64,000 bases of DNA from a virus (Duplodnaviria > Caudoviricetes), in the IMG/VR virus record IMGVR_UViG_3300029288_000060, positions 64,001-128,000 of that record. One strand, written 5' to 3'. The first letter of the stretch is position 1. Each line of letters opens with the position of its first letter. A program made the position numbers and the translations under genes. Positions 3 to 38,440 of this stretch are shown here, piece by piece. Under the pieces are notes generated by a model. It ran no database searches. It worked only from the letters and a program-made list of their open reading frames with translations, and had not been told where the DNA came from.

Positions 3-1868
3 GATAATTTACATTATGATAATGCTACATCTGGACTTAAAGATTTAGATGTAGATAAGTATACTGTTAACTGGATTTATAGATTGATTTCAGATGATGA
101 AGAGTCTGATGAAATTATGTATATACAATCATGTTCTCAATATGATACTCTTGGTGATGCAAGTGACGCAACTATTCCTGCCGCTCCTGAAATGTTATCT
201 TCTCATTGTTTGTTAGTAGGAAGAATTATTGTTAAAAAAGGTGATGTAGTCGCATCATTAATAGAGAGCGCATTTGACACAACATTTACTGGAAGTCAAA
301 TTAGTGACCATAATTCATTAACAAATTTACAAGGGGGGAAAGCTTCAGAATATTATCACCTTGAACATACACAACATGATGTTTTAACTGATGGTTCTGA
401 TGCTGACTCATTACACACACATAATTTAAAAGCTGATAAAGTTGTTGGTGCAACCAATGGTCATTTTGCAAGTTTGGATGCTCTTGGTAATTTAGGTGAT
501 TCCGGACATAAAGATTCAGATTATGCAGATGCTATTCATACTCATGATGATAGATATTATACAGAATCTGAAAATGATATTTTATTAGCCGGTAAATCCT
601 CAACTGCTCATTTACATGATGATAGATATTATACAGAATCTGAAACAAACTCATTATTAAACAATAAATTAAATATAGTGCAAAATACTATTAGAGTAAG
701 CCCAGTTGGTGGAGACTATCAAACATTAAATGAATGTATAACATATCTTAATTCTTTAACAAGTACAGATGGAATAAGAGTTGTTGTAGACGGTGGAACA
801 TACGATATTGCTTCAACAATTACCATAAATGCCACTATGCCAATTTCAATTGAAGGAAGTGGTATTTCCAATTCTATTTTAAATACTGCTGCTGGTCTTT
901 TAAATAATAATATGTTTGAAGTTTTGTCTCAAACACATTTTGATAAATTAACTTTTCAGGGAACTGATGCTTGGGTGGCAGGAACAAATGCATCTTTTAT
1001 AAGAATTAATAATAATAATTTATATTGTGAAATTAAAGATTTTATCATGGATAAATGTAAAAAAGGTATTGAAGTTATAAAAGATTCAGAAATATTTGCT
1101 TTTGATTTTATTATTAGTAATGCTACAGTTTCTGGAATTGAAATAAATACTGCTGGAGCTTGTTCTATAGATACAGAAATAGGTAATTTAGAGAATTGCC
1201 AAATAGGAATAAATTTATTACAGTCAAGTTTAGCTAATGTATTTATTGATACTTTAAGATTTATAAACGGTTTAGATAATACTTCAATTATATATACTCC
1301 GGCTAATTTTACATATTATACTTTTACAATTGGTTCTTGTGAATGGAATAATATAGGTACATTTTTGTCTGGTTTTGATTTTACAAATTCAAGAGATGCT
1401 AATATTGAAATAATAAATTGTATTGGTATTGAATCAAAATCACCATTTGCAAAAATTAATTTAGTTGGTAATACTACTGTTACAACATTAAATCAAAATG
1501 TATGGACAAAAGCAGTATATACAAATACATCAATATATGATTGCAAATTCACAATTGCTAATAATAAAATAACTTTTCAACCAGATCATTCAAGAGACCT
1601 TATAATGTATATATCTGGTTCCATTTATATTTCATCAAATGGAACCAGAGAAATTAAATATTCAATTGTTAAAAATGGTGATTCAAGTTCAGTTTATGGA
1701 TTAGGAACTGTAACTGTAGATCAAAATTCTAGAAAATTTACATTTACAACTAATGTTTATTTAGAAAGTGTTGCTAAAAATGATTATTTTGAAATTTGGA
1801 TAATGAACATAACAAACGGTGATGATCCAACAATTTCAGATTTAACATGGACTACAATATCAAGGTAA
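3..1868 (+). CDS. Tail fibre / virion structural protein (5'-truncated by window)
   Basis: Frame is open from nt 3 (DNLHYDNATSG...). HDDRYYTESE occurs twice, typical of phage fibre proteins; beta-helix-like C-terminal half. Confidence 0.6.
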   Translation, partial: DNLHYDNATSGLKDLDVDKYTVNWIYRLISDDEESDEIMYIQSCSQYDTLGDASDATIPAAPEMLSSHCLLVGRIIVKKGDVVASLIESAFDTTFTGSQISDHNSLTNLQGGKASEYYHLEHTQHDVLTDGSDADSLHTHNLKADKVVGATNGHFASLDALGNLGDSGHKDSDYADAIHTHDDRYYTESENDILLAGKSSTAHLHDDRYYTESETNSLLNNKLNIVQNTIRVSPVGGDYQTLNECITYLNSLTSTDGIRVVVDGGTYDIASTITINATMPISIEGSGISNSILNTAAGLLNNNMFEVLSQTHFDKLTFQGTDAWVAGTNASFIRINNNNLYCEIKDFIMDKCKKGIEVIKDSEIFAFDFIISNATVSGIEINTAGACSIDTEIGNLENCQIGINLLQSSLANVFIDTLRFINGLDNTSIIYTPANFTYYTFTIGSCEWNNIGTFLSGFDFTNSRDANIEIINCIGIESKSPFAKINLVGNTTVTTLNQNVWTKAVYTNTSIYDCKFTIANNKITFQPDHSRDLIMYISGSIYISSNGTREIKYSIVKNGDSSSVYGLGTVTVDQNSRKFTFTTNVYLESVAKNDYFEIWIMNITNGDDPTISDLTWTTISR

Positions 1869-1896: not shown

Positions 1897-2493
1897 ATGA
1901 AAAAATCAGAATTAAAAATTATGGCAATGGAAACATGTTTCATGTCAGATTTGTCTTCTAAGGATAAAAAGAAACATTTAGATTATATTAAGGAAGCAGA
2001 TACTTATCAATGTATTGGATATATTCTTGATGGTAAATTTTATAATTTAAATGAATCTGGAAAGCAGGAATTAAAGAGAAGATTTGTAAAAGAGCAAACT
2101 GTCAGGAAAACTGTACATAGTGCTATTGGTGCTGTTGCCTCTCTGGGAACATTTGCTATTTATAGAGGATTGAGAGCAATGTTTGATCAATGTACTAAGG
2201 CATGTGGAGTTGTTGGATTAAATACTGTAAAAAGACAATATTGTTTGTTAAATTGTAAAATCAGAGTTAAACAAAGAGAAATATCAGAGGTACAAAAGAT
2301 GATGAGTCAATGTAACCAAACTGGTAATCCTGAAAAGTGTAAACAAGGGTTAATGAAAAAAATGGAGAAGGCTAAAAATCAATTAGCTGGATTAACACAA
2401 CAATTAGCTAAAGCAAAACAGTATATGGTTCAAAAAGGAAAATCAATGGAAAAAGGTGATAATGTTGAACCAGGGAAAACAAAACTAATATAA
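1897..2493 (+). CDS. Basic Cys-rich putative virion protein (paralogue family A)
   Basis: AGGAG RBS; Gly/Ala hydrophobic segment then C-x3-C...C-x3-C...C-x7-PEKC pattern shared with 2495, 43312, 44029. Confidence 0.55.
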   Translation: MKKSELKIMAMETCFMSDLSSKDKKKHLDYIKEADTYQCIGYILDGKFYNLNESGKQELKRRFVKEQTVRKTVHSAIGAVASLGTFAIYRGLRAMFDQCTKACGVVGLNTVKRQYCLLNCKIRVKQREISEVQKMMSQCNQTGNPEKCKQGLMKKMEKAKNQLAGLTQQLAKAKQYMVQKGKSMEKGDNVEPGKTKLI

Positions 2494-13405: not shown

Positions 13406-13495
13406 TGGGGCAGGAGGTAGGACTTGAACCTACAATTGTTGGTTTCTCGTTTTATCGAGCCGGCTCCCATGCGCTTCCATTAGGCGACTCCTGCC
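13406..13495 (-). tRNA. tRNA-like RNA: His-type acceptor (G-1:C73), encoded CCA, aberrant anticodon arm
   Basis: GCAGGAG/CUCCUGC acceptor + C73 + CCA; T arm GUAGG-UUCAAGU-CCUAC; D loop AAUGGA; no 7-nt anticodon loop. Confidence 0.7.
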
Positions 13496-13502
13496 ATATT
13501 TA

Positions 13503-14732
13503 TTAACTTTTCTTCCAAGGTTTTACTTCAGTTGAATCTTTTATATTATGAATTGGAATAATTCTATCAAGAATAGTTGCTGTTGGTTCTATTGCTTTTT
13601 CAATTATTTTTGAATCTTTATAAGCATCTGGAGATTCATCTATTGTTGCCATACAAACTGATGTAGAAAATATTCCTTCCATATCATTTTTGAATTTTTC
13701 AATGTCTAAATCCTCTTTAGCTTTTGCTCTAGAATGGTTTCTACCTGCACCATGAGGAGCAGAATAATTCCATTCTGAATTAGATTTTCCTTCACATATA
13801 AGAATTCCATCTCTCATATTAAAGGGGATTAACATTCTTTCTCCAATATAAGATCTAATTGCACCTTTTCTAATTATTCCATCTTTTGGATCAATGTAAT
13901 TATGAATGGTTTCAATTTGATCTTTTATATCTACTGATATTTTTAGATCATTTTTTAAAATACTTATAATTGATTCCATTATGGTTTTTCTATTTAATTT
14001 TGCATAATCTTGACAAAAGTACATATCTTTCAAATAGCTGTCTTTATTATCACCTTCAAGAAAATCTAATGGTGATGGTTTTAATCTTCTTCGTTCATTA
14101 TTAAGTTGTTTAATTTTTTTATCCCATTCTTTTTTAGGATATGTTTCTTTTATTTCTTTTATTGCTATATTTTTATCTGGAAGTTTTCTTATAGAAGCAA
14201 TTTTCTGCCAGTATTCACAAACTTTTTTTCCTAAATTTCTTGAACCTGAATGAATTGTAACCCAAACATCATTATTGGTTACTGACTTTCCTATTTCTAT
14301 AAAGTGGTTTCCTCCACCAAGTGTTCCAATACTATGAACGACATAATCAGAATTAATTCCAAGTTTTTTACATAATTCATAACCTGAATTATGTAAATCG
14401 CTTTTACTTTTTTTATTAATATTCTGCCCCAAGGGTATTGATTGTCTTATTCTTATATCTAATTCTTTATGATTAACAACAATGTCGCCTACATTAAAAG
14501 AAAGCATTCCACAACCTTTATCAACTCCAACTACATTTGGTATAACTTTATCACTTACTGGCATTGTAAATCCAATAACTGATCCTTTTCCATAATGACA
14601 ATCAGGCATAATGATAACTTTGTTTGTAAAAGCTTCATGATTAATCATTTGAATAATTTGACTTATACATGATTCTTCCACTTCATCAATCATTATATAA
14701 GCTGTTGTATATTTACCTATTAAAGGGAACAT
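13503..14732 (-). CDS. rtcB: RtcB RNA ligase
   Basis: MPDCHYGKG, GVDKGCG, GTLGGGNHFIE, HSGSR, HNY, SAPHGAGR, DESPDAYK motifs. Confidence 0.95.
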   Translation of the reverse strand: MFPLIGKYTTAYIMIDEVEESCISQIIQMINHEAFTNKVIIMPDCHYGKGSVIGFTMPVSDKVIPNVVGVDKGCGMLSFNVGDIVVNHKELDIRIRQSIPLGQNINKKSKSDLHNSGYELCKKLGINSDYVVHSIGTLGGGNHFIEIGKSVTNNDVWVTIHSGSRNLGKKVCEYWQKIASIRKLPDKNIAIKEIKETYPKKEWDKKIKQLNNERRRLKPSPLDFLEGDNKDSYLKDMYFCQDYAKLNRKTIMESIISILKNDLKISVDIKDQIETIHNYIDPKDGIIRKGAIRSYIGERMLIPFNMRDGILICEGKSNSEWNYSAPHGAGRNHSRAKAKEDLDIEKFKNDMEGIFSTSVCMATIDESPDAYKDSKIIEKAIEPTATILDRIIPIHNIKDSTEVKPWKKS

Positions 14733-16644: not shown

Positions 16645-17172
16645 TTATCTCCTCTCAGCTCCTTTTATAAAGTTAAAATTATCTGGTTTATCTTCCATTA
16701 AAAGAAAGATTTTTTCTTCTGATATTGGATAATAATTATTATTATCTACTCCAATATCATAACATTTTCCTTGTATTATATCATTTAATCTACCATGTGA
16801 ATGACCAAAGAGCAAAATACTATTATGGTGTGATTTGGGCCAAACTATCATTGCAAAATGACATACAACTATATGATTATTATTAATTCTTCTTTGCCAT
16901 ATTTCATGATAATTTTGATTCATCCATTTATCATGAGAACCTCTAATAAAGAAATGATTTCCGTTTAATTGATCAATAATTTTTTGTGCATCTTGGTACT
17001 TATTTAAAAAAGTAAAATCACCCCCATGAATAACTATATCATTTTTAGTAACAATTTCATTATTTCGTTTTATTAATTCTTTATGCATTTCAGTTAAGTT
17101 TTTAAAAGGTCGATTACAATATTTGATGATGTTTTTGTGATAGTAATGTTCGTCAGCGGTAAAAAAGTACAA
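16645..17172 (-). CDS. Metallophosphoesterase (phage type)
   Basis: TADEHYYHKNI, GGDF, RGSHD, CHF, FGHSHG, DIGVD motifs. Confidence 0.85.
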   Translation of the reverse strand: MYFFTADEHYYHKNIIKYCNRPFKNLTEMHKELIKRNNEIVTKNDIVIHGGDFTFLNKYQDAQKIIDQLNGNHFFIRGSHDKWMNQNYHEIWQRRINNNHIVVCHFAMIVWPKSHHNSILLFGHSHGRLNDIIQGKCYDIGVDNNNYYPISEEKIFLLMEDKPDNFNFIKGAERR

Positions 17173-17830: not shown

Positions 17831-17882
17831 TAATTGTCCTTTACTTTTCTTGATTTTATAACAAAAAAATATATTCAGGAGT

Positions 17883-17917
17883 GGGCAAGTAATAGTAAAA
17901 ATCCCTATTACTTGCCC
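17883..17917 (-). terminator. Terminator-like hairpin downstream of the ncRNA
   Basis: GGGCAAGTAATAG / CTATTACTTGCCC perfect 13-bp inverted repeat. Confidence 0.65.
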
Positions 17918-17956
17918 TATGGAGGAGGATAAATGGTGAAGCAGAACACATTTTTA

Positions 17957-18232
17957 AAGTTCCAAGTGGCAGCTGGAAGTTGTTAAGATGCTGAGAGAAG
18001 CACAACTTTACCCAGATTTTTCCAATGTCTTCAATCTTTTTATCTTAAATCTTAAATACCCAATATTTTATCTGCGTGGGTATGCAGTCAATCTTTAGTC
18101 TTTAGACTTTAGTCTTCAAATAGGTAGTTGGACAATATCCAACAATCGTTTTATTATCCCAATAGCATAAGTTCATTCATTAACCCAAGAATGTGAGGCT
18201 CTCATTTCTTATTTTTACACCACTGAAACCTT
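17957..18232 (-). ncRNA. Putative structured ncRNA with two arrays of 7-nt NNAAGAY repeats
   Basis: No ORF; 5' AAGGUUUCAGUGGUG pairs with 3' UGCCACUUGGAACUU; internal hairpins; AGAACAAA promoter motif upstream (18243-18250); hairpin downstream. Confidence 0.65.
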
Positions 18233-18275
18233 GATTTTATATTTTGTTCTAAAAAAGTAATTAAAAAACTTTTAT

Positions 18276-18806
18276 TTAAGATACTACATCTGTTGTTGCA
18301 TTTAACATTTCAAGATGAGCATCGATAAAGTCAAGTTTATTTTGTAGATCTTTTAAATAATTATTTTTAAATTCTTCATCATAGAGCTGAATCGATATGG
18401 ATTTGCTACCATCCACATTATATTGCATACCTCTCATTAATTTTGAATCAGCTAATGTTTTATTTAAGGCATTAAAAACTGCCTGATATTCTTTATAATT
18501 TAGTTTAAACATAAGAGCTTCCGCAATTGATATTTCTTCTTCTGGAATGATAATACCTTTTGGAATTCTAATTTTTGTTTTGATATTGGTTTGGTCAATT
18601 ATAATTTTTAGCTCTGCTCTTCTTGAAAGAAGGTCCAAGGCTGATTGAATCAAACTCATAACGTAGTTTTTCTGAGTTTTCTCAGAATCAAATGCAGGTT
18701 TTTCTGTTGATGTTATTGATGAGTATTTTTGAATATCTTCAATAACATGAAGGACTTTCTTTTTATTTAACTTCTTTTCTTTTAAAACTTCAATCATTTT
18801 AGGCAT
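18276..18806 (-). CDS. DIP1984/DUF6847-like helical protein
   Basis: Pattern LK..I.QTN.KT...ISIAEAL...IDAHLEMLNATT recalled for this family; coiled-coil character. Confidence 0.55.
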   Translation of the reverse strand: MPKMIEVLKEKKLNKKKVLHVIEDIQKYSSITSTEKPAFDSEKTQKNYVMSLIQSALDLLSRRAELKIIIDQTNIKTKIRIPKGIIIPEEEISIAEALMFKLNYKEYQAVFNALNKTLADSKLMRGMQYNVDGSKSISIQLYDEEFKNNYLKDLQNKLDFIDAHLEMLNATTDVVS

Positions 18807-37787: not shown

Positions 37788-38107
37788 AAGCGGTTAGTAT
37801 TTTTTAAATTTTAAATAGGAACTAACTATGCTTCAAAAACATAAAACAAGGCGGAGAGTATATTAATCTAAAAGGATTTTTGTATAGGAACTCTCATTTG
37901 CCTTTTTTACAAAGTATAAGCGGGAAGTAGATAAATTATCCAAAATTTTAATAGGAACTTCCTATGCTTATTATAATAGCGAGTGGTATTTATAATCTTA
38001 GCAATTATATTTTTTAGGAACCACTTATGCTATACATTTTTAAAAAATAAAGCGGAGAGTATATTTATCGCAACGATTTTTTGTATAGGAACTCTCATTT
38101 GCTTTAT
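37788..38107 (-). ncRNA. Array of five covarying RNA hairpins
   Basis: Units 37788-37833, 37848-37904, 37917-37970, 37976-38033, 38047-38107; conserved GC/internal loop/UCCUA with a variable but always paired 6-bp stem. Confidence 0.75.
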
Positions 38108-38440
38108 CTTTAATTTGTTCTTAATAAATTAGATTTTATCTCGTTTTTTTGTTTCTTAAATAATAAATTTTCCATGGTTTTAAATTCATGCTCGCTCTCG
38201 TTAGAAAAATCTATAATTAATTTATATTTTTTAGTTAGAAAATCATTAAATTCTTTTTCATTATCCACTTTTTTTACTTATTATTCTTCAACAAAAAAGT
38301 TCTTGCAAGTAAATCATTACGTATTGTCATACCATCTTCCTCCACAATAGAATTACCTGACTTTAAAAATAAAGATATTTTTTTGAAAATTTTTTTAAAA
38401 AATAACATCTTTCCCCCTATACATAATATTTTATTTCAAA

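What the first reader, a model, noticed from the sequence alone, without database searches (positions are those of the whole stretch)
17883..18806. Structured ~275-nt ncRNA with twin 7-nt repeat arrays, paired with a DIP1984/DUF6847-like gene
Seen (minus strand): an ORF-free region with its own AGAACAAA promoter motif (18243-18250). A closing stem joins its ends (AAGGUUUCAGUGGUG / UGCCACUUGGAACUU). It contains hairpins GUUGGA/UCCAAC, AAGUUGU/ACAACUU and CUGG/CCAG. Two four-copy arrays, UGAAGAC-UAAAGUC-UAAAGAC-UAAAGAU (18091-18118) and UUAAGAU-UUAAGAU-A-AAAAGAU-UGAAGAC (18027-18055), symmetrically flank a pseudoknot or switch (CUGC/GCAG, whose loop AUACCCA is complementary to UGGGUAU). A 13-bp hairpin follows. 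Inference: periodic single-stranded repeats suit binding by an oligomeric protein, as TRAP binds NAG repeats. The best candidate is the helical protein encoded immediately upstream, giving a two-component RNP, an RNA antitoxin-like pair or a sponge. I do not recognise it as a named RNA class.
Basis: partly seen in the sequence, partly recalled or inferred. Interest (0 to 1): 0.85.

Follow-up and report, generated by a model that had tools for sequence, protein, structure and literature searches.

The report
New phage RNA with protein partner
A ~280-nt, pseudoknot-rich RNA carrying two arrays of a 7-nt repeat lies directly after a small helical protein gene in most loci examined from many uncultivated phages; it matches no catalogued RNA family and probably forms a particle with that protein.

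Summary
Window 17957-18232 (minus strand) encodes a conserved structured RNA. Two arrays of four heptads (consensus U-N-A-A-G-R-Y) stay unpaired. On 19 homologues, 96.8% of pair cells are standard pairs, 24 of 30 pairs show changes on both sides, and 0 of 500 shuffles reach this.

No Rfam 15 family matches. The RNA lies just 3' of a ~175-aa protein gene in about 45 loci. Protein identity falls to 25-35% and GC ranges from 25% to 56%. This protein is the only neighbour conserved across loci. It has the DIP1984/DUF6847 fold (3kdq, Z 11.4) and is predicted to self-associate.

In distant relatives the variable region holds tRNA-like modules, one of them YrlA-like. Cellular DUF6847 genes are also followed by a structured RNA, and in one bacterial order they sit inside Ro60-YrlA loci.

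My best reading, at about 50%, is a two-part ribonucleoprotein in which the heptad arrays are multimer binding sites. Binding and function are not shown. The scan noted this same stretch once before (e1-5682035), with the same reading. I rate it a new RNA class of high interest.

The parts
18276..18806 (-). Gene for the 176-aa helical protein with the DIP1984/DUF6847 fold; the invariable upstream partner of the RNA
   Evidence: The ORF is listed. The AlphaFold2 model has pLDDT 93. The best solved match is 3kdq: Foldseek probability 1.0 and VIA Z 11.4 over 149 of 152 residues. DUF6847 is hit by 13 of 44 family members and phrog_1491 by 43 of 44. The family has 940 clusters at E<=1e-3.
18243..18250 (-). 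AGAACAAA motif, a probable phage promoter for the RNA
   Evidence: The genome holds 79 copies against 23 expected. Many sit 15-30 nt before a ribosome-binding site and ATG. The same motif precedes the RNA in L004, L005, L006, L012, L014, L036 and L037. Its function is inferred.
17957..18232 (-). Core of the structured RNA, 276 nt from closing stem to closing stem
   Evidence: Covariance model R1 scores it at 258.6 bits. It occurs once in the 268.8-kb record. No Rfam family matches.
18218..18232 (-). P1 closing stem, 5' strand
   Evidence: Of 13 pairs, 11 show changes on both sides and 97.6% of cells are paired. G-U pairs fix the transcribed strand.
17957..17971 (-). P1 closing stem, 3' strand
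   Evidence: Supported. The same stem is supported in clade B, where no permutation of 5000 reaches the cognate energy.
18199..18204 (-). 5' strand of pseudoknot PK-C; it pairs with the apical loop of the 3' hairpin
   Evidence: Cognate duplexes average -7.4 kcal/mol against -5.1 for non-cognate pairs, and no permutation of 2000 reaches this. Many compensatory variants occur.
18174..18200 (-). Pseudoknot PK-A: a short G+C stem whose loop pairs with the strand 3 nt downstream
   Evidence: About 15 different loop/partner sequence pairs occur at the homologous place. The permutation test is biased by my optimisation.
18127..18143 (-). Hairpin in the variable region; in relatives this place holds other hairpins or a tRNA-like module
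   Evidence: It is not conserved in alignment A2. tRNA-like inserts occur here in L016 and in many clade B members. L060 has a YrlA-type module here.
18091..18118 (-). Heptad array 1: four copies of U-N-A-A-G-R-Y, predicted unpaired
   Evidence: It is conserved in the aligned clade-A members, though some heptads lose the exact AAG triplet. Spacing is 7 nt in 69 of 85 steps. It is unpaired in the consensus fold.
18056..18087 (-). Pseudoknot PK-B between the arrays: a 4-bp hairpin whose loop pairs with the strand 10 nt downstream
   Evidence: All four stem pairs show changes on both sides. For the loop pairing, no permutation of 2000 reaches the cognate energy. The element is absent in L016, L038 and clade B.
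18027..18055 (-). Heptad array 2: four copies, with one 8-nt step
   Evidence: Shown.
17973..18015 (-). 3' hairpin whose apical loop (17992-17997) forms PK-C
   Evidence: Helices 3-5 show changes on both sides in 9 of 13 pairs. The inner AAGUU/AACUU helix also recurs in clade B.
17883..17917 (-). 13-bp hairpin after the RNA, a probable transcript end; the T-run starts about 14 nt later
   Evidence: The fold is. The simple terminator scan does not list it because its loop is 9 nt. Different strong hairpins, or a tRNA gene, occupy this place in relatives.

Best explanation
The locus is a self-contained two-gene module of large uncultivated phages. It encodes a ~175-aa DUF6847/DIP1984-fold protein and, directly downstream, its cognate ~280-nt non-coding RNA.

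Shown: the RNA folds into a compact core made of the P1 closing stem, pseudoknot PK-A, and the 3' hairpin locked to the 5' region by PK-C.

Inferred: a long loop protrudes from this core. It consists of array 1 going out, a distal pseudoknot, and array 2 coming back. The eight heptads (U-N-A-A-G-R-Y) would thus be presented as two antiparallel single strands. They would be binding sites for a multimeric protein, most likely symmetric dimers of the neighbouring protein. Each dimer would bridge one heptad of each array, giving a ladder of about four dimers.

More speculative: the particle acts in RNA or tRNA metabolism during infection, in the manner of Ro60-Y RNA particles. The hints are the tRNA-like modules, the tRNA-cluster context, RtcB in the same gene block, and cellular DUF6847 genes lying inside Ro60-YrlA loci.
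For: - **Structure.** Covariation supports the nested helices, PK-B and PK-C, PK-A, and P1 in clade B.
- **Arrays.** They are conserved in the members examined, though degenerate in some, while the helices around them change sequence. The AAG core persists across 25-56% GC. They are unpaired in the consensus fold.
- **Coupling.** The RNA follows the protein gene in loci with protein identity down to 25-35%. An RNA-first pattern scan gave 13 true hits, all with the gene directly upstream. The protein is the only neighbour shared by 16 loci.
- **Self-association.** The complex prediction score is 0.73, against 0.02 for the best of 3 controls. That mark was reached by 20 of 30 proteins solved as pairs of one chain and by 1 of 23 solved as single chains. 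The runs agree in at least 94% of contacts, the partner pLDDT is at least 85, and the interface is symmetric. The job held four copies, unlike the calibration. The multi-chain crystal 3kdq may also be remembered by the model.
- **Precedent.** The HutP hexamer binds two sets of three XAG triplets with 4-nt spacers on its two faces (PMC2425495).
- **Link to the Y RNA world.** L060 carries a YrlA-type module inside the RNA (37.5 bits). Canonical cellular DUF6847 genes are followed by a structured RNA. In three related genomes they lie in the order Ro60, YrlA, DUF6847, RNA, YrlA. RtcB lies 3.2 kb downstream on the same strand in the window.
Against: - No experiment or model shows that the protein touches the RNA.
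- The protein's conserved residues are mostly polar or acidic rather than basic.
- Three viral loci with the protein show no RNA within 520 nt (L042, L054, L057).
- No transcript data could be obtained.
- The cellular RNA after DUF6847 genes has no AAG arrays. Heptad recognition, if real, would then be specific to the phage branch.
- The Ro60-YrlA link rests on one bacterial order. The other two DUF6847 genomes examined lack Ro60, as does the phage record.
- Synteny alone can reflect co-expression rather than binding.
Confidence: 0.5

Rival explanations
1. The RNA works on a host factor and the neighbouring protein is only a helper for processing, stability or timing. One version: the arrays act as a decoy for a host oligomeric RNA-binding protein of the HutP, TRAP or CsrA kind. 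Another version: each heptad acts as a lysine-codon-like 'specifier' that pairs with the anticodon loop of tRNA-Lys. In that reading U pairs with A38, N faces the modified base 37, AAG pairs with the anticodon, and R pairs with U33. The RNA would then hold or shield tRNA-Lys from anticodon nucleases.
For: The heptad consensus U-N-A-A-G-R-Y fits anticodon-loop pairing position by position; this is my inference from general tRNA knowledge. In GC-richer members many heptads read like the CsrA-type motif with GGA. The module sits in or next to tRNA clusters, and a tRNA-Met(CAT) gene follows it directly in L014, L031 and L034. RtcB is in the same gene block. The AAG core is the same across very different phages, as expected for a universal target.
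Against: It does not explain why the DUF6847-fold protein is the one invariable neighbour. The window's heptads contain no GGA. No HutP or TRAP gene is in the phage record, and the host is unknown. Pairing of 5-6 nt to an anticodon loop is weak without a docking platform.
Confidence: 0.2
2. It is a toxin-antitoxin-like pair. The protein is harmful or highly active when free, and the abundant RNA, made from its own promoter, sequesters it in an inactive oligomer, as type III antitoxin RNAs do.
For: It is a mobile two-gene module with no other conserved neighbour. It combines a repeat-bearing RNA with a protein predicted to self-associate. A separate promoter-like motif for the RNA could set the RNA-to-protein ratio.
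Against: Type III systems have 34-45-nt repeats upstream of an endoribonuclease toxin that cuts them. Here the repeats are 7 nt, lie downstream of the gene and sit inside an elaborate fold. The protein has no nuclease-like fold.
Confidence: 0.1
3. The RNA is a catalytic or ligand-sensing RNA whose pseudoknotted core is the business end. The heptads would then be structural spacers.
For: Three pseudoknots and conserved junction nucleotides next to P1 are typical of ribozymes and riboswitches.
Against: The most conserved single-stranded features are the periodic arrays, which no known ribozyme or riboswitch has. PK-B is dispensable in several members. The RNA sits after a gene and before hairpins or tRNAs, and the downstream genes vary.
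Confidence: 0.07
4. The heptads act at the DNA level as iterons: an operator or centromere-like site for a DNA-binding protein, as the omega repressor binds arrays of 7-bp repeats.
Against: The arrays are embedded in an element whose helices and pseudoknots covary, with G-U pairs on one strand only. That is a signature of RNA, not of duplex DNA.
Confidence: 0.03

Closest known systems
hut terminator RNA bound by HutP, and the trp leader bound by TRAP (Bacillus)
   Same: Single-stranded NAG triplets occur at a fixed period. HutP sites are two sets of three XAG with 4-nt spacers, the same 7-nt period, separated by a linker and bound by the two faces of one oligomer (PMC2425495).
   Different: Those are short cis-acting leader segments that control a downstream operon. 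Here the arrays are four plus four (up to five plus four). They sit inside a free-standing, pseudoknotted ~280-nt RNA located after a gene. No HutP or TRAP gene is present. The candidate partner has a different, helical fold.
Bacterial Y RNAs (YrlA) with Ro60/Rsr
   Same: It is a modular non-coding RNA closed by a stem of its 5' and 3' ends and encoded next to its protein partner. Many relatives carry a tRNA-like module, of the YrlA type in L060. Cellular DUF6847 genes lie between YrlA genes beside Ro60 in one bacterial order. RtcB is nearby in the window, as in rsr-yrlA-rtcB operons (PMC4201824, PMC7790460; I saw only their titles and abstracts).
   Different: The window RNA has no tRNA-like module and no match to the YrlA model. 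No Ro60 gene is in the phage record. Y RNAs lack heptad arrays and this set of pseudoknots.
CsrB/RsmZ-type sponge RNAs
   Same: Many copies of a short purine-rich motif occur in one RNA. In GC-richer relatives the heptads resemble A-N-GGA sites.
   Different: The window's heptads have no GGA. The motifs are strictly periodic and unpaired rather than displayed in hairpin loops. The RNA has a complex tertiary core.
Type III toxin-antitoxin RNAs (ToxI and relatives)
   Same: A repeat-bearing RNA is paired with one protein gene in a mobile two-gene module.
   Different: The repeat unit is 7 nt, not 34-45 nt. The RNA lies downstream, not upstream, of the gene. The protein is not a ToxN-like nuclease.
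tmRNA with SmpB
   Same: A small protein gene lies directly upstream of a pseudoknot-rich RNA whose ends pair. tRNA-like elements occur in relatives.
   Different: ARAGORN finds no tmRNA. There is no CCA end, tag reading frame or T-arm next to the closing stem. The protein is helical, not an SmpB barrel.

Membership tests
Any Rfam 15 family | Match to a curated covariance model | tested here: not met
   The window has no hit at gathering scores in this region. At E<=10 only chance-level fragments appear. Twelve relatives give only tRNA hits, one sub-threshold YrlA hit and one weak sub-threshold tmRNA hit (19 bits, cut-off 47) outside the RNA in L051.
YrlA / bacterial Y RNA | tRNA-like module: T-arm, closed acceptor-like stem and D-arm | tested here: not met
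   The window RNA has only a plain hairpin in that place. Relative L060 has the module at 37.5 bits, below the gathering score of 69.
YrlA / bacterial Y RNA | Ro60 (TROVE) partner encoded by the same genome | tested here: not met
   There is no TROVE match in the 268.8-kb record, which is 74% complete.
YrlA / bacterial Y RNA | Conserved Ro60-binding sequence in the closing stem | tested here: inconclusive
   There is no YrlA model hit over P1, but the stem motif was not examined by itself.
HutP/TRAP-type NAG-repeat RNA | Three or more NAG triplets at regular spacing, single-stranded | tested here: met
   The window has four plus four AAG triplets at 7-nt (once 8-nt) spacing. They are unpaired in the consensus fold.
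HutP/TRAP-type NAG-repeat RNA | Cognate HutP or TRAP protein | tested here: not met
   PF09021 and PF02081 are not found in the phage record. The host genome is unknown.
HutP/TRAP-type NAG-repeat RNA | Leader position, overlapping a terminator or antiterminator of the regulated operon | tested here: not met
   The RNA lies after a gene and is closed by its own stem. The downstream genes differ between loci.
Type III toxin-antitoxin | Tandem 34-45-nt RNA repeats upstream of an endoribonuclease toxin | tested here: not met
   The repeats are 7 nt and lie downstream of the gene. The only full-length fold match is 3kdq.
tmRNA | tRNA-like domain formed by the ends, tag reading frame, detection by ARAGORN | tested here: not met
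   ARAGORN finds none in the window, and there is no Rfam tmRNA hit there.
DUF6847 / DIP1984 family (the protein) | Match to PF20935 or NF038048 above the curated cut-off | tested here: inconclusive
   The window protein has no Pfam hit and scores 15 bits on NF038048 (cut-off 70), though over its full length. Of the family, 13 of 44 members hit PF20935 at E<=0.01, best 5e-8. The relative in L064 scores 29.9 bits against a cut-off of 27.
DUF6847 / DIP1984 family (the protein) | Same fold as the solved member 3kdq | tested here: met
   Foldseek gives probability 1.0 and TM 0.54-0.62. VIA gives Z 11.4 with 149 of 152 residues aligned; it is the only full-length match. Atlas structural neighbours include DUF6847 clusters.

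The most novel reading that the evidence does not exclude
DUF6847/DIP1984 proteins, a family of unknown function spread through bacteria and phages, are RNA-binding proteins that each come with a cognate structured RNA encoded directly downstream. The phage branch described here (pseudoknot core plus AAG heptad ladder, often with a tRNA mimic) and the cellular branch (found beside Ro60 and YrlA in one order) would together form a new class of ribonucleoprotein. That class would act in tRNA/RNA surveillance or repair, parallel to Ro60-Y RNA.
Probability: 0.3. Interest if true: 0.9.

Novelty: categorically new. Interest (0 to 1): 0.85.

Why it matters
Large RNAs with several covarying pseudoknots are rare, and new classes usually reveal new biochemistry.

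- This one is widespread. Its partner protein family has 940 clusters at 50% identity.
- It was not found among 50,697 GenBank phage records, so it has escaped study.
- It comes with a defined candidate protein partner and a clear, mutable recognition motif. That makes it directly testable in a surrogate host.
- It gives a first functional lead for the DUF6847/DIP1984 ('septicolysin') family.
- It hints at a link between phage tRNA/RNA-repair modules and the Ro60-Y RNA world.

Tried and rejected
- **Rfam.** Searches at gathering and at lax thresholds gave nothing for this RNA.
- **GenBank phages.** A distant-mode DNA search and tblastn with two family proteins gave no match in 50,697 records.
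- **PDB by sequence profile.** No hit.
- **Single-sequence folding energy.** Not exceptional, z = -1.17.
- **Coding potential.** The longest stop-free stretch in the window RNA is 31 aa, and the 49-aa ORF at 17856-18005 is not conserved. A few GC-richer relatives are stop-free over their whole length in one frame, which I take as chance.
- **tmRNA or tRNA.** ARAGORN finds none in the window.
- **Ro60, HutP, TRAP.** Not found in the phage record.
- **CsrA decoy.** Attractive for GC-rich relatives, but the window's heptads lack GGA.
- **CspB coincidence.** The complement of the commonest heptad equals a heptamer that I recall as preferred by Bacillus CspB. The G-U pairs show that the other strand is the RNA, so I dropped it.
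- **RNase P-like, retron, telomerase-like template.** No model hit, and no reverse transcriptase among the neighbours.
- **Second, broader covariance model.** The link between the window's clade and clade B therefore rests on synteny with homologous proteins, shared architecture and only marginal R1 hits (E 0.1-0.6).
- **PK-A tests.** The per-sequence shuffle test is weak. The permutation test is biased by my choice of the best decomposition.
- **Broad protein alignment on genome contigs.** A narrower alignment found only metagenome-assembled contigs.

Full report
**Where it lies.** The window is bases 64001-128000 of a 268.8-kb IMG/VR phage record. CheckV estimates the record to be 74% complete, and its GC is about 28%. 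The finding lies on the minus strand. A 176-aa ORF (18276-18806) is followed by 390 ORF-poor bases that end in a 13-bp hairpin.

**No known family.** Rfam 15 gives nothing here at gathering scores, and only chance-level fragments at E up to 10. ARAGORN finds no tRNA or tmRNA in the window. The folding energy of the single sequence is unremarkable (z = -1.17). The case for an RNA therefore had to come from comparison with relatives.

**Relatives of the window's clade.**
- The protein has 19 close relatives in metagenomes.
- Their contigs were fetched. All those long enough carry a conserved stretch downstream of the gene. The stretch is 70-80% identical over about 165 nt, at least as conserved as the 60-77% identical proteins.
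- A MAFFT alignment of 11 distinct sequences, folded with RNAalifold, gave the closing stem, a central hairpin and a 3' hairpin, all with compensatory changes.
- Covariance model R1, built from this alignment, finds one copy in the phage record.

**More distant members.** R1 also finds the RNA directly after the homologous gene in much more distant phages. These are L016, L031, L034, L036, L037, L038, L041 and L043. Their proteins are 29-36% identical to the window's, and the RNAs have 25-55% GC.

**Structure.** On the 19-sequence alignment:
- 96.8% of pair cells are standard pairs.
- 24 of 30 pairs show changes on both sides.
- No shuffle of 500 reaches any measure, and sliding the partners drops pairing to 30-49%.
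- G-U pairs fix the transcribed strand as that of the protein gene.

There are three pseudoknots.
Cognate loop/partner duplexes are more stable than non-cognate ones, and no permutation of 2000 reaches the observed mean.
- **PK-C** is new. It pairs a purine run just after P1 (18199-18204) with the apical loop of the 3' hairpin (17992-17997). The test gives the same result. Compensatory variants are many, for example G to A, G to C and A to G changes, each matched in the loop.
- **PK-A** is also new (18174-18200). It is a hairpin-type pseudoknot with about 15 different loop/partner sequences at the homologous place. My permutation test for it is biased by optimisation, so I rest on the list of variants.

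**The arrays.**
- In the members where they are well preserved, each array holds about four units (up to five in some); several members have degenerate heptads.
- The unit consensus is U (87%), N, A, A, G, then A or G, then C or U.
- The step is 7 nt in 69 of 85 cases and 8 nt in 13.
- The arrays stay unpaired in the consensus fold.
- They persist where the pseudoknot between them is lost, in L016 and L038.
- AAG triplets in such chains average 5.9 per RNA, against 0.12 in shuffles.

**A wider clade.** A profile search finds 940 protein clusters at E<=1e-3. Thirty viral contigs with proteins 24-36% identical were fetched. In most of them the downstream region has the same plan but a different sequence. 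The plan is:
- a closing stem, supported by 0 of 5000 permutations;
- an A-rich junction;
- a PK-C-like pairing, more weakly supported at 181 of 5000 permutations;
- a PK-A-like element;
- a variable region;
- two arrays, often five plus four, whose units more often read AAGG;
- a 3' hairpin with the same inner AAGUU/AACUU helix.

R1 gives only marginal hits in these loci, and a broader model could not be built. Homology of the two clades is therefore inferred from synteny and shared architecture.

**tRNA-like inserts.** In this wider clade the variable region often holds a tRNA or tRNA-like element, several with odd anticodons. In L060 the element is a permuted tRNA mimic of the YrlA type (37.5 bits, local E 8e-7, below the gathering score).

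**Coupling of RNA and protein.**
- A scan of IMG/VR with an RNA-only pattern gave 22 hits. Thirteen are real RNAs, and all 13 have the protein gene directly upstream. The other nine are coding sequence.
- Conversely, about 26 of 29 viral loci with the protein show the RNA.
- Among 16 loci with long flanks, the protein is the only neighbour shared by all.
- The pair therefore behaves as a self-contained module that moves between genomic contexts. It is often in or next to tRNA clusters, and a tRNA-Met(CAT) gene follows it directly in three loci.

**The protein.**
- It models confidently (pLDDT 93).
- Its only full-length solved match is 3kdq, the Corynebacterium DIP1984 protein.
- Sequence models agree weakly.
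- tblastn with two family members found it in none of 50,697 GenBank phage records. A genome-contig search with a narrow alignment found it only in metagenome-assembled contigs.
- A four-copy complex prediction supports self-association. The score is 0.73 against 0.02 for the best of 3 controls. That mark was reached by 20 of 30 proteins solved as pairs of one chain and by 1 of 23 solved as single chains. The runs agree in at least 94% of contacts, the partner pLDDT is at least 85, and the interface is symmetric. The job differs from the calibration, and a similar crystal exists, so this is support and not proof.

**Transcription.**
- The AGAACAAA motif occurs 79 times in the record against 23 expected. 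It often sits 15-30 nt before a ribosome-binding site.
- It precedes the RNA in many relatives, sometimes overlapping the stop codon of the protein gene.
- An independent promoter is plausible but not shown.

**Cellular relatives.** Canonical DUF6847 genes in five Acidobacteriota genomes are also followed by a structured RNA of about 170-220 nt.
- It has paired ends, a T-arm-like hairpin and a G-rich 3' motif.
- It has no AAG arrays, and it has no Rfam hit at the loci scanned.
- In the three genomes of one order the gene lies in the order Ro60, YrlA, DUF6847, RNA, YrlA.
- The other two genomes lack Ro60.
- In the window, RtcB lies 3.2 kb downstream in the same-strand gene block. Next to it is a tRNA-like element noted by another reader.

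**Interpretation.** The structure, the conservation and the coupling to the protein are shown. Three things are inferred:
- that the arrays are protein-binding sites;
- that the neighbour is the binder;
- that symmetric dimers bridge the two antiparallel arrays.

The HutP precedent makes this reasonable: it has two sets of XAG triplets at a 7-nt period on two faces of one oligomer. A role in tRNA or RNA surveillance is a lead only. The rivals are a decoy for a host factor or for tRNA-Lys, an antitoxin-like RNA, a ribozyme, and DNA iterons. They are weighed in their own sections.

Noticed in passing
L097:1250-1500 (-), L098:1060-1370 (-), L099:1290-1500 (-), L100:1933-2150 (+), L101 (minus strand, directly after the DUF6847 gene): Canonical cellular DUF6847 genes in Acidobacteriota are followed by an unannotated structured RNA. 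It has paired ends, a T-arm-like hairpin and a G-rich 3' motif. It has no Rfam hit at the loci scanned.
   Followed up: partly
L098:2612-2746 and 81-233 (-); L100:1303-1448 and 2280-2412 (+); L101:1356-1501 and 393-525 (-): In three related genomes the DUF6847 gene lies between two YrlA-like RNAs (38-46 bits, below the gathering score) and next to a Ro60/TROVE gene. This ties a family of unknown function to Y RNA loci.
   Followed up: partly
L060:2108-2209; also L016:2561-2638, L048:2092-2165, L052:2313-2388, L058:2109-2185, L061:2229-2304, L062:2314-2387: tRNA or tRNA-like modules are embedded inside the RNA's variable region in distant relatives. Several have unusual anticodons (ATT, AGG, an unreadable one). 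In L060 the module is a permuted, YrlA-type mimic.
   Followed up: partly
L014:3852-3927, L031:1102-1176, L034:2337-2411: A tRNA-Met(CAT) gene starts within 10 nt of the end of the RNA in three unrelated loci. In L041 and L050 the module sits inside a tRNA gene cluster.
   Followed up: no
window 13409-14732 (-): An RtcB RNA ligase gene (201 bits) has a weak tRNA-like element (31.7 bits) just downstream. It lies in the same minus-strand gene block as the protein-RNA pair, together with a calcineurin-like phosphoesterase at 16645-17172.
   Followed up: partly
L004:3560-3870; compare window about 37800-38121 (-): In L004 a 350-nt array of four hairpins with a GUUCCUAU motif is inserted between the AGAACAAA motif and the RNA. 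The same motif follows the AGAACAAA copy at window 38121, where another reader described a five-unit hairpin array. It looks like a portable 5' leader module.
   Followed up: partly
whole record; in the window for example 19006 (+), 20794 (+), 38518 (+), 58800 (-): The motif TAGAACAAA occurs 79 times against 23 expected, often 15-30 nt before a ribosome-binding site. It is probably a phage promoter class. From memory it resembles the AACA late-promoter element of giant phages with their own RNA polymerase.
   Followed up: partly
G000:C1:263759-263829 (outside the window): ARAGORN calls a tRNA with anticodon CTA (an amber suppressor) in the same phage record, which might point to stop-codon recoding in part of the genome.
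   Followed up: no
L058:2046-2399, L059:2012-2325, L060:2031-2384: In three GC-richer relatives the RNA region is free of stop codons over nearly its whole length in one frame. I take this as chance, but I did not test it.
   Followed up: no
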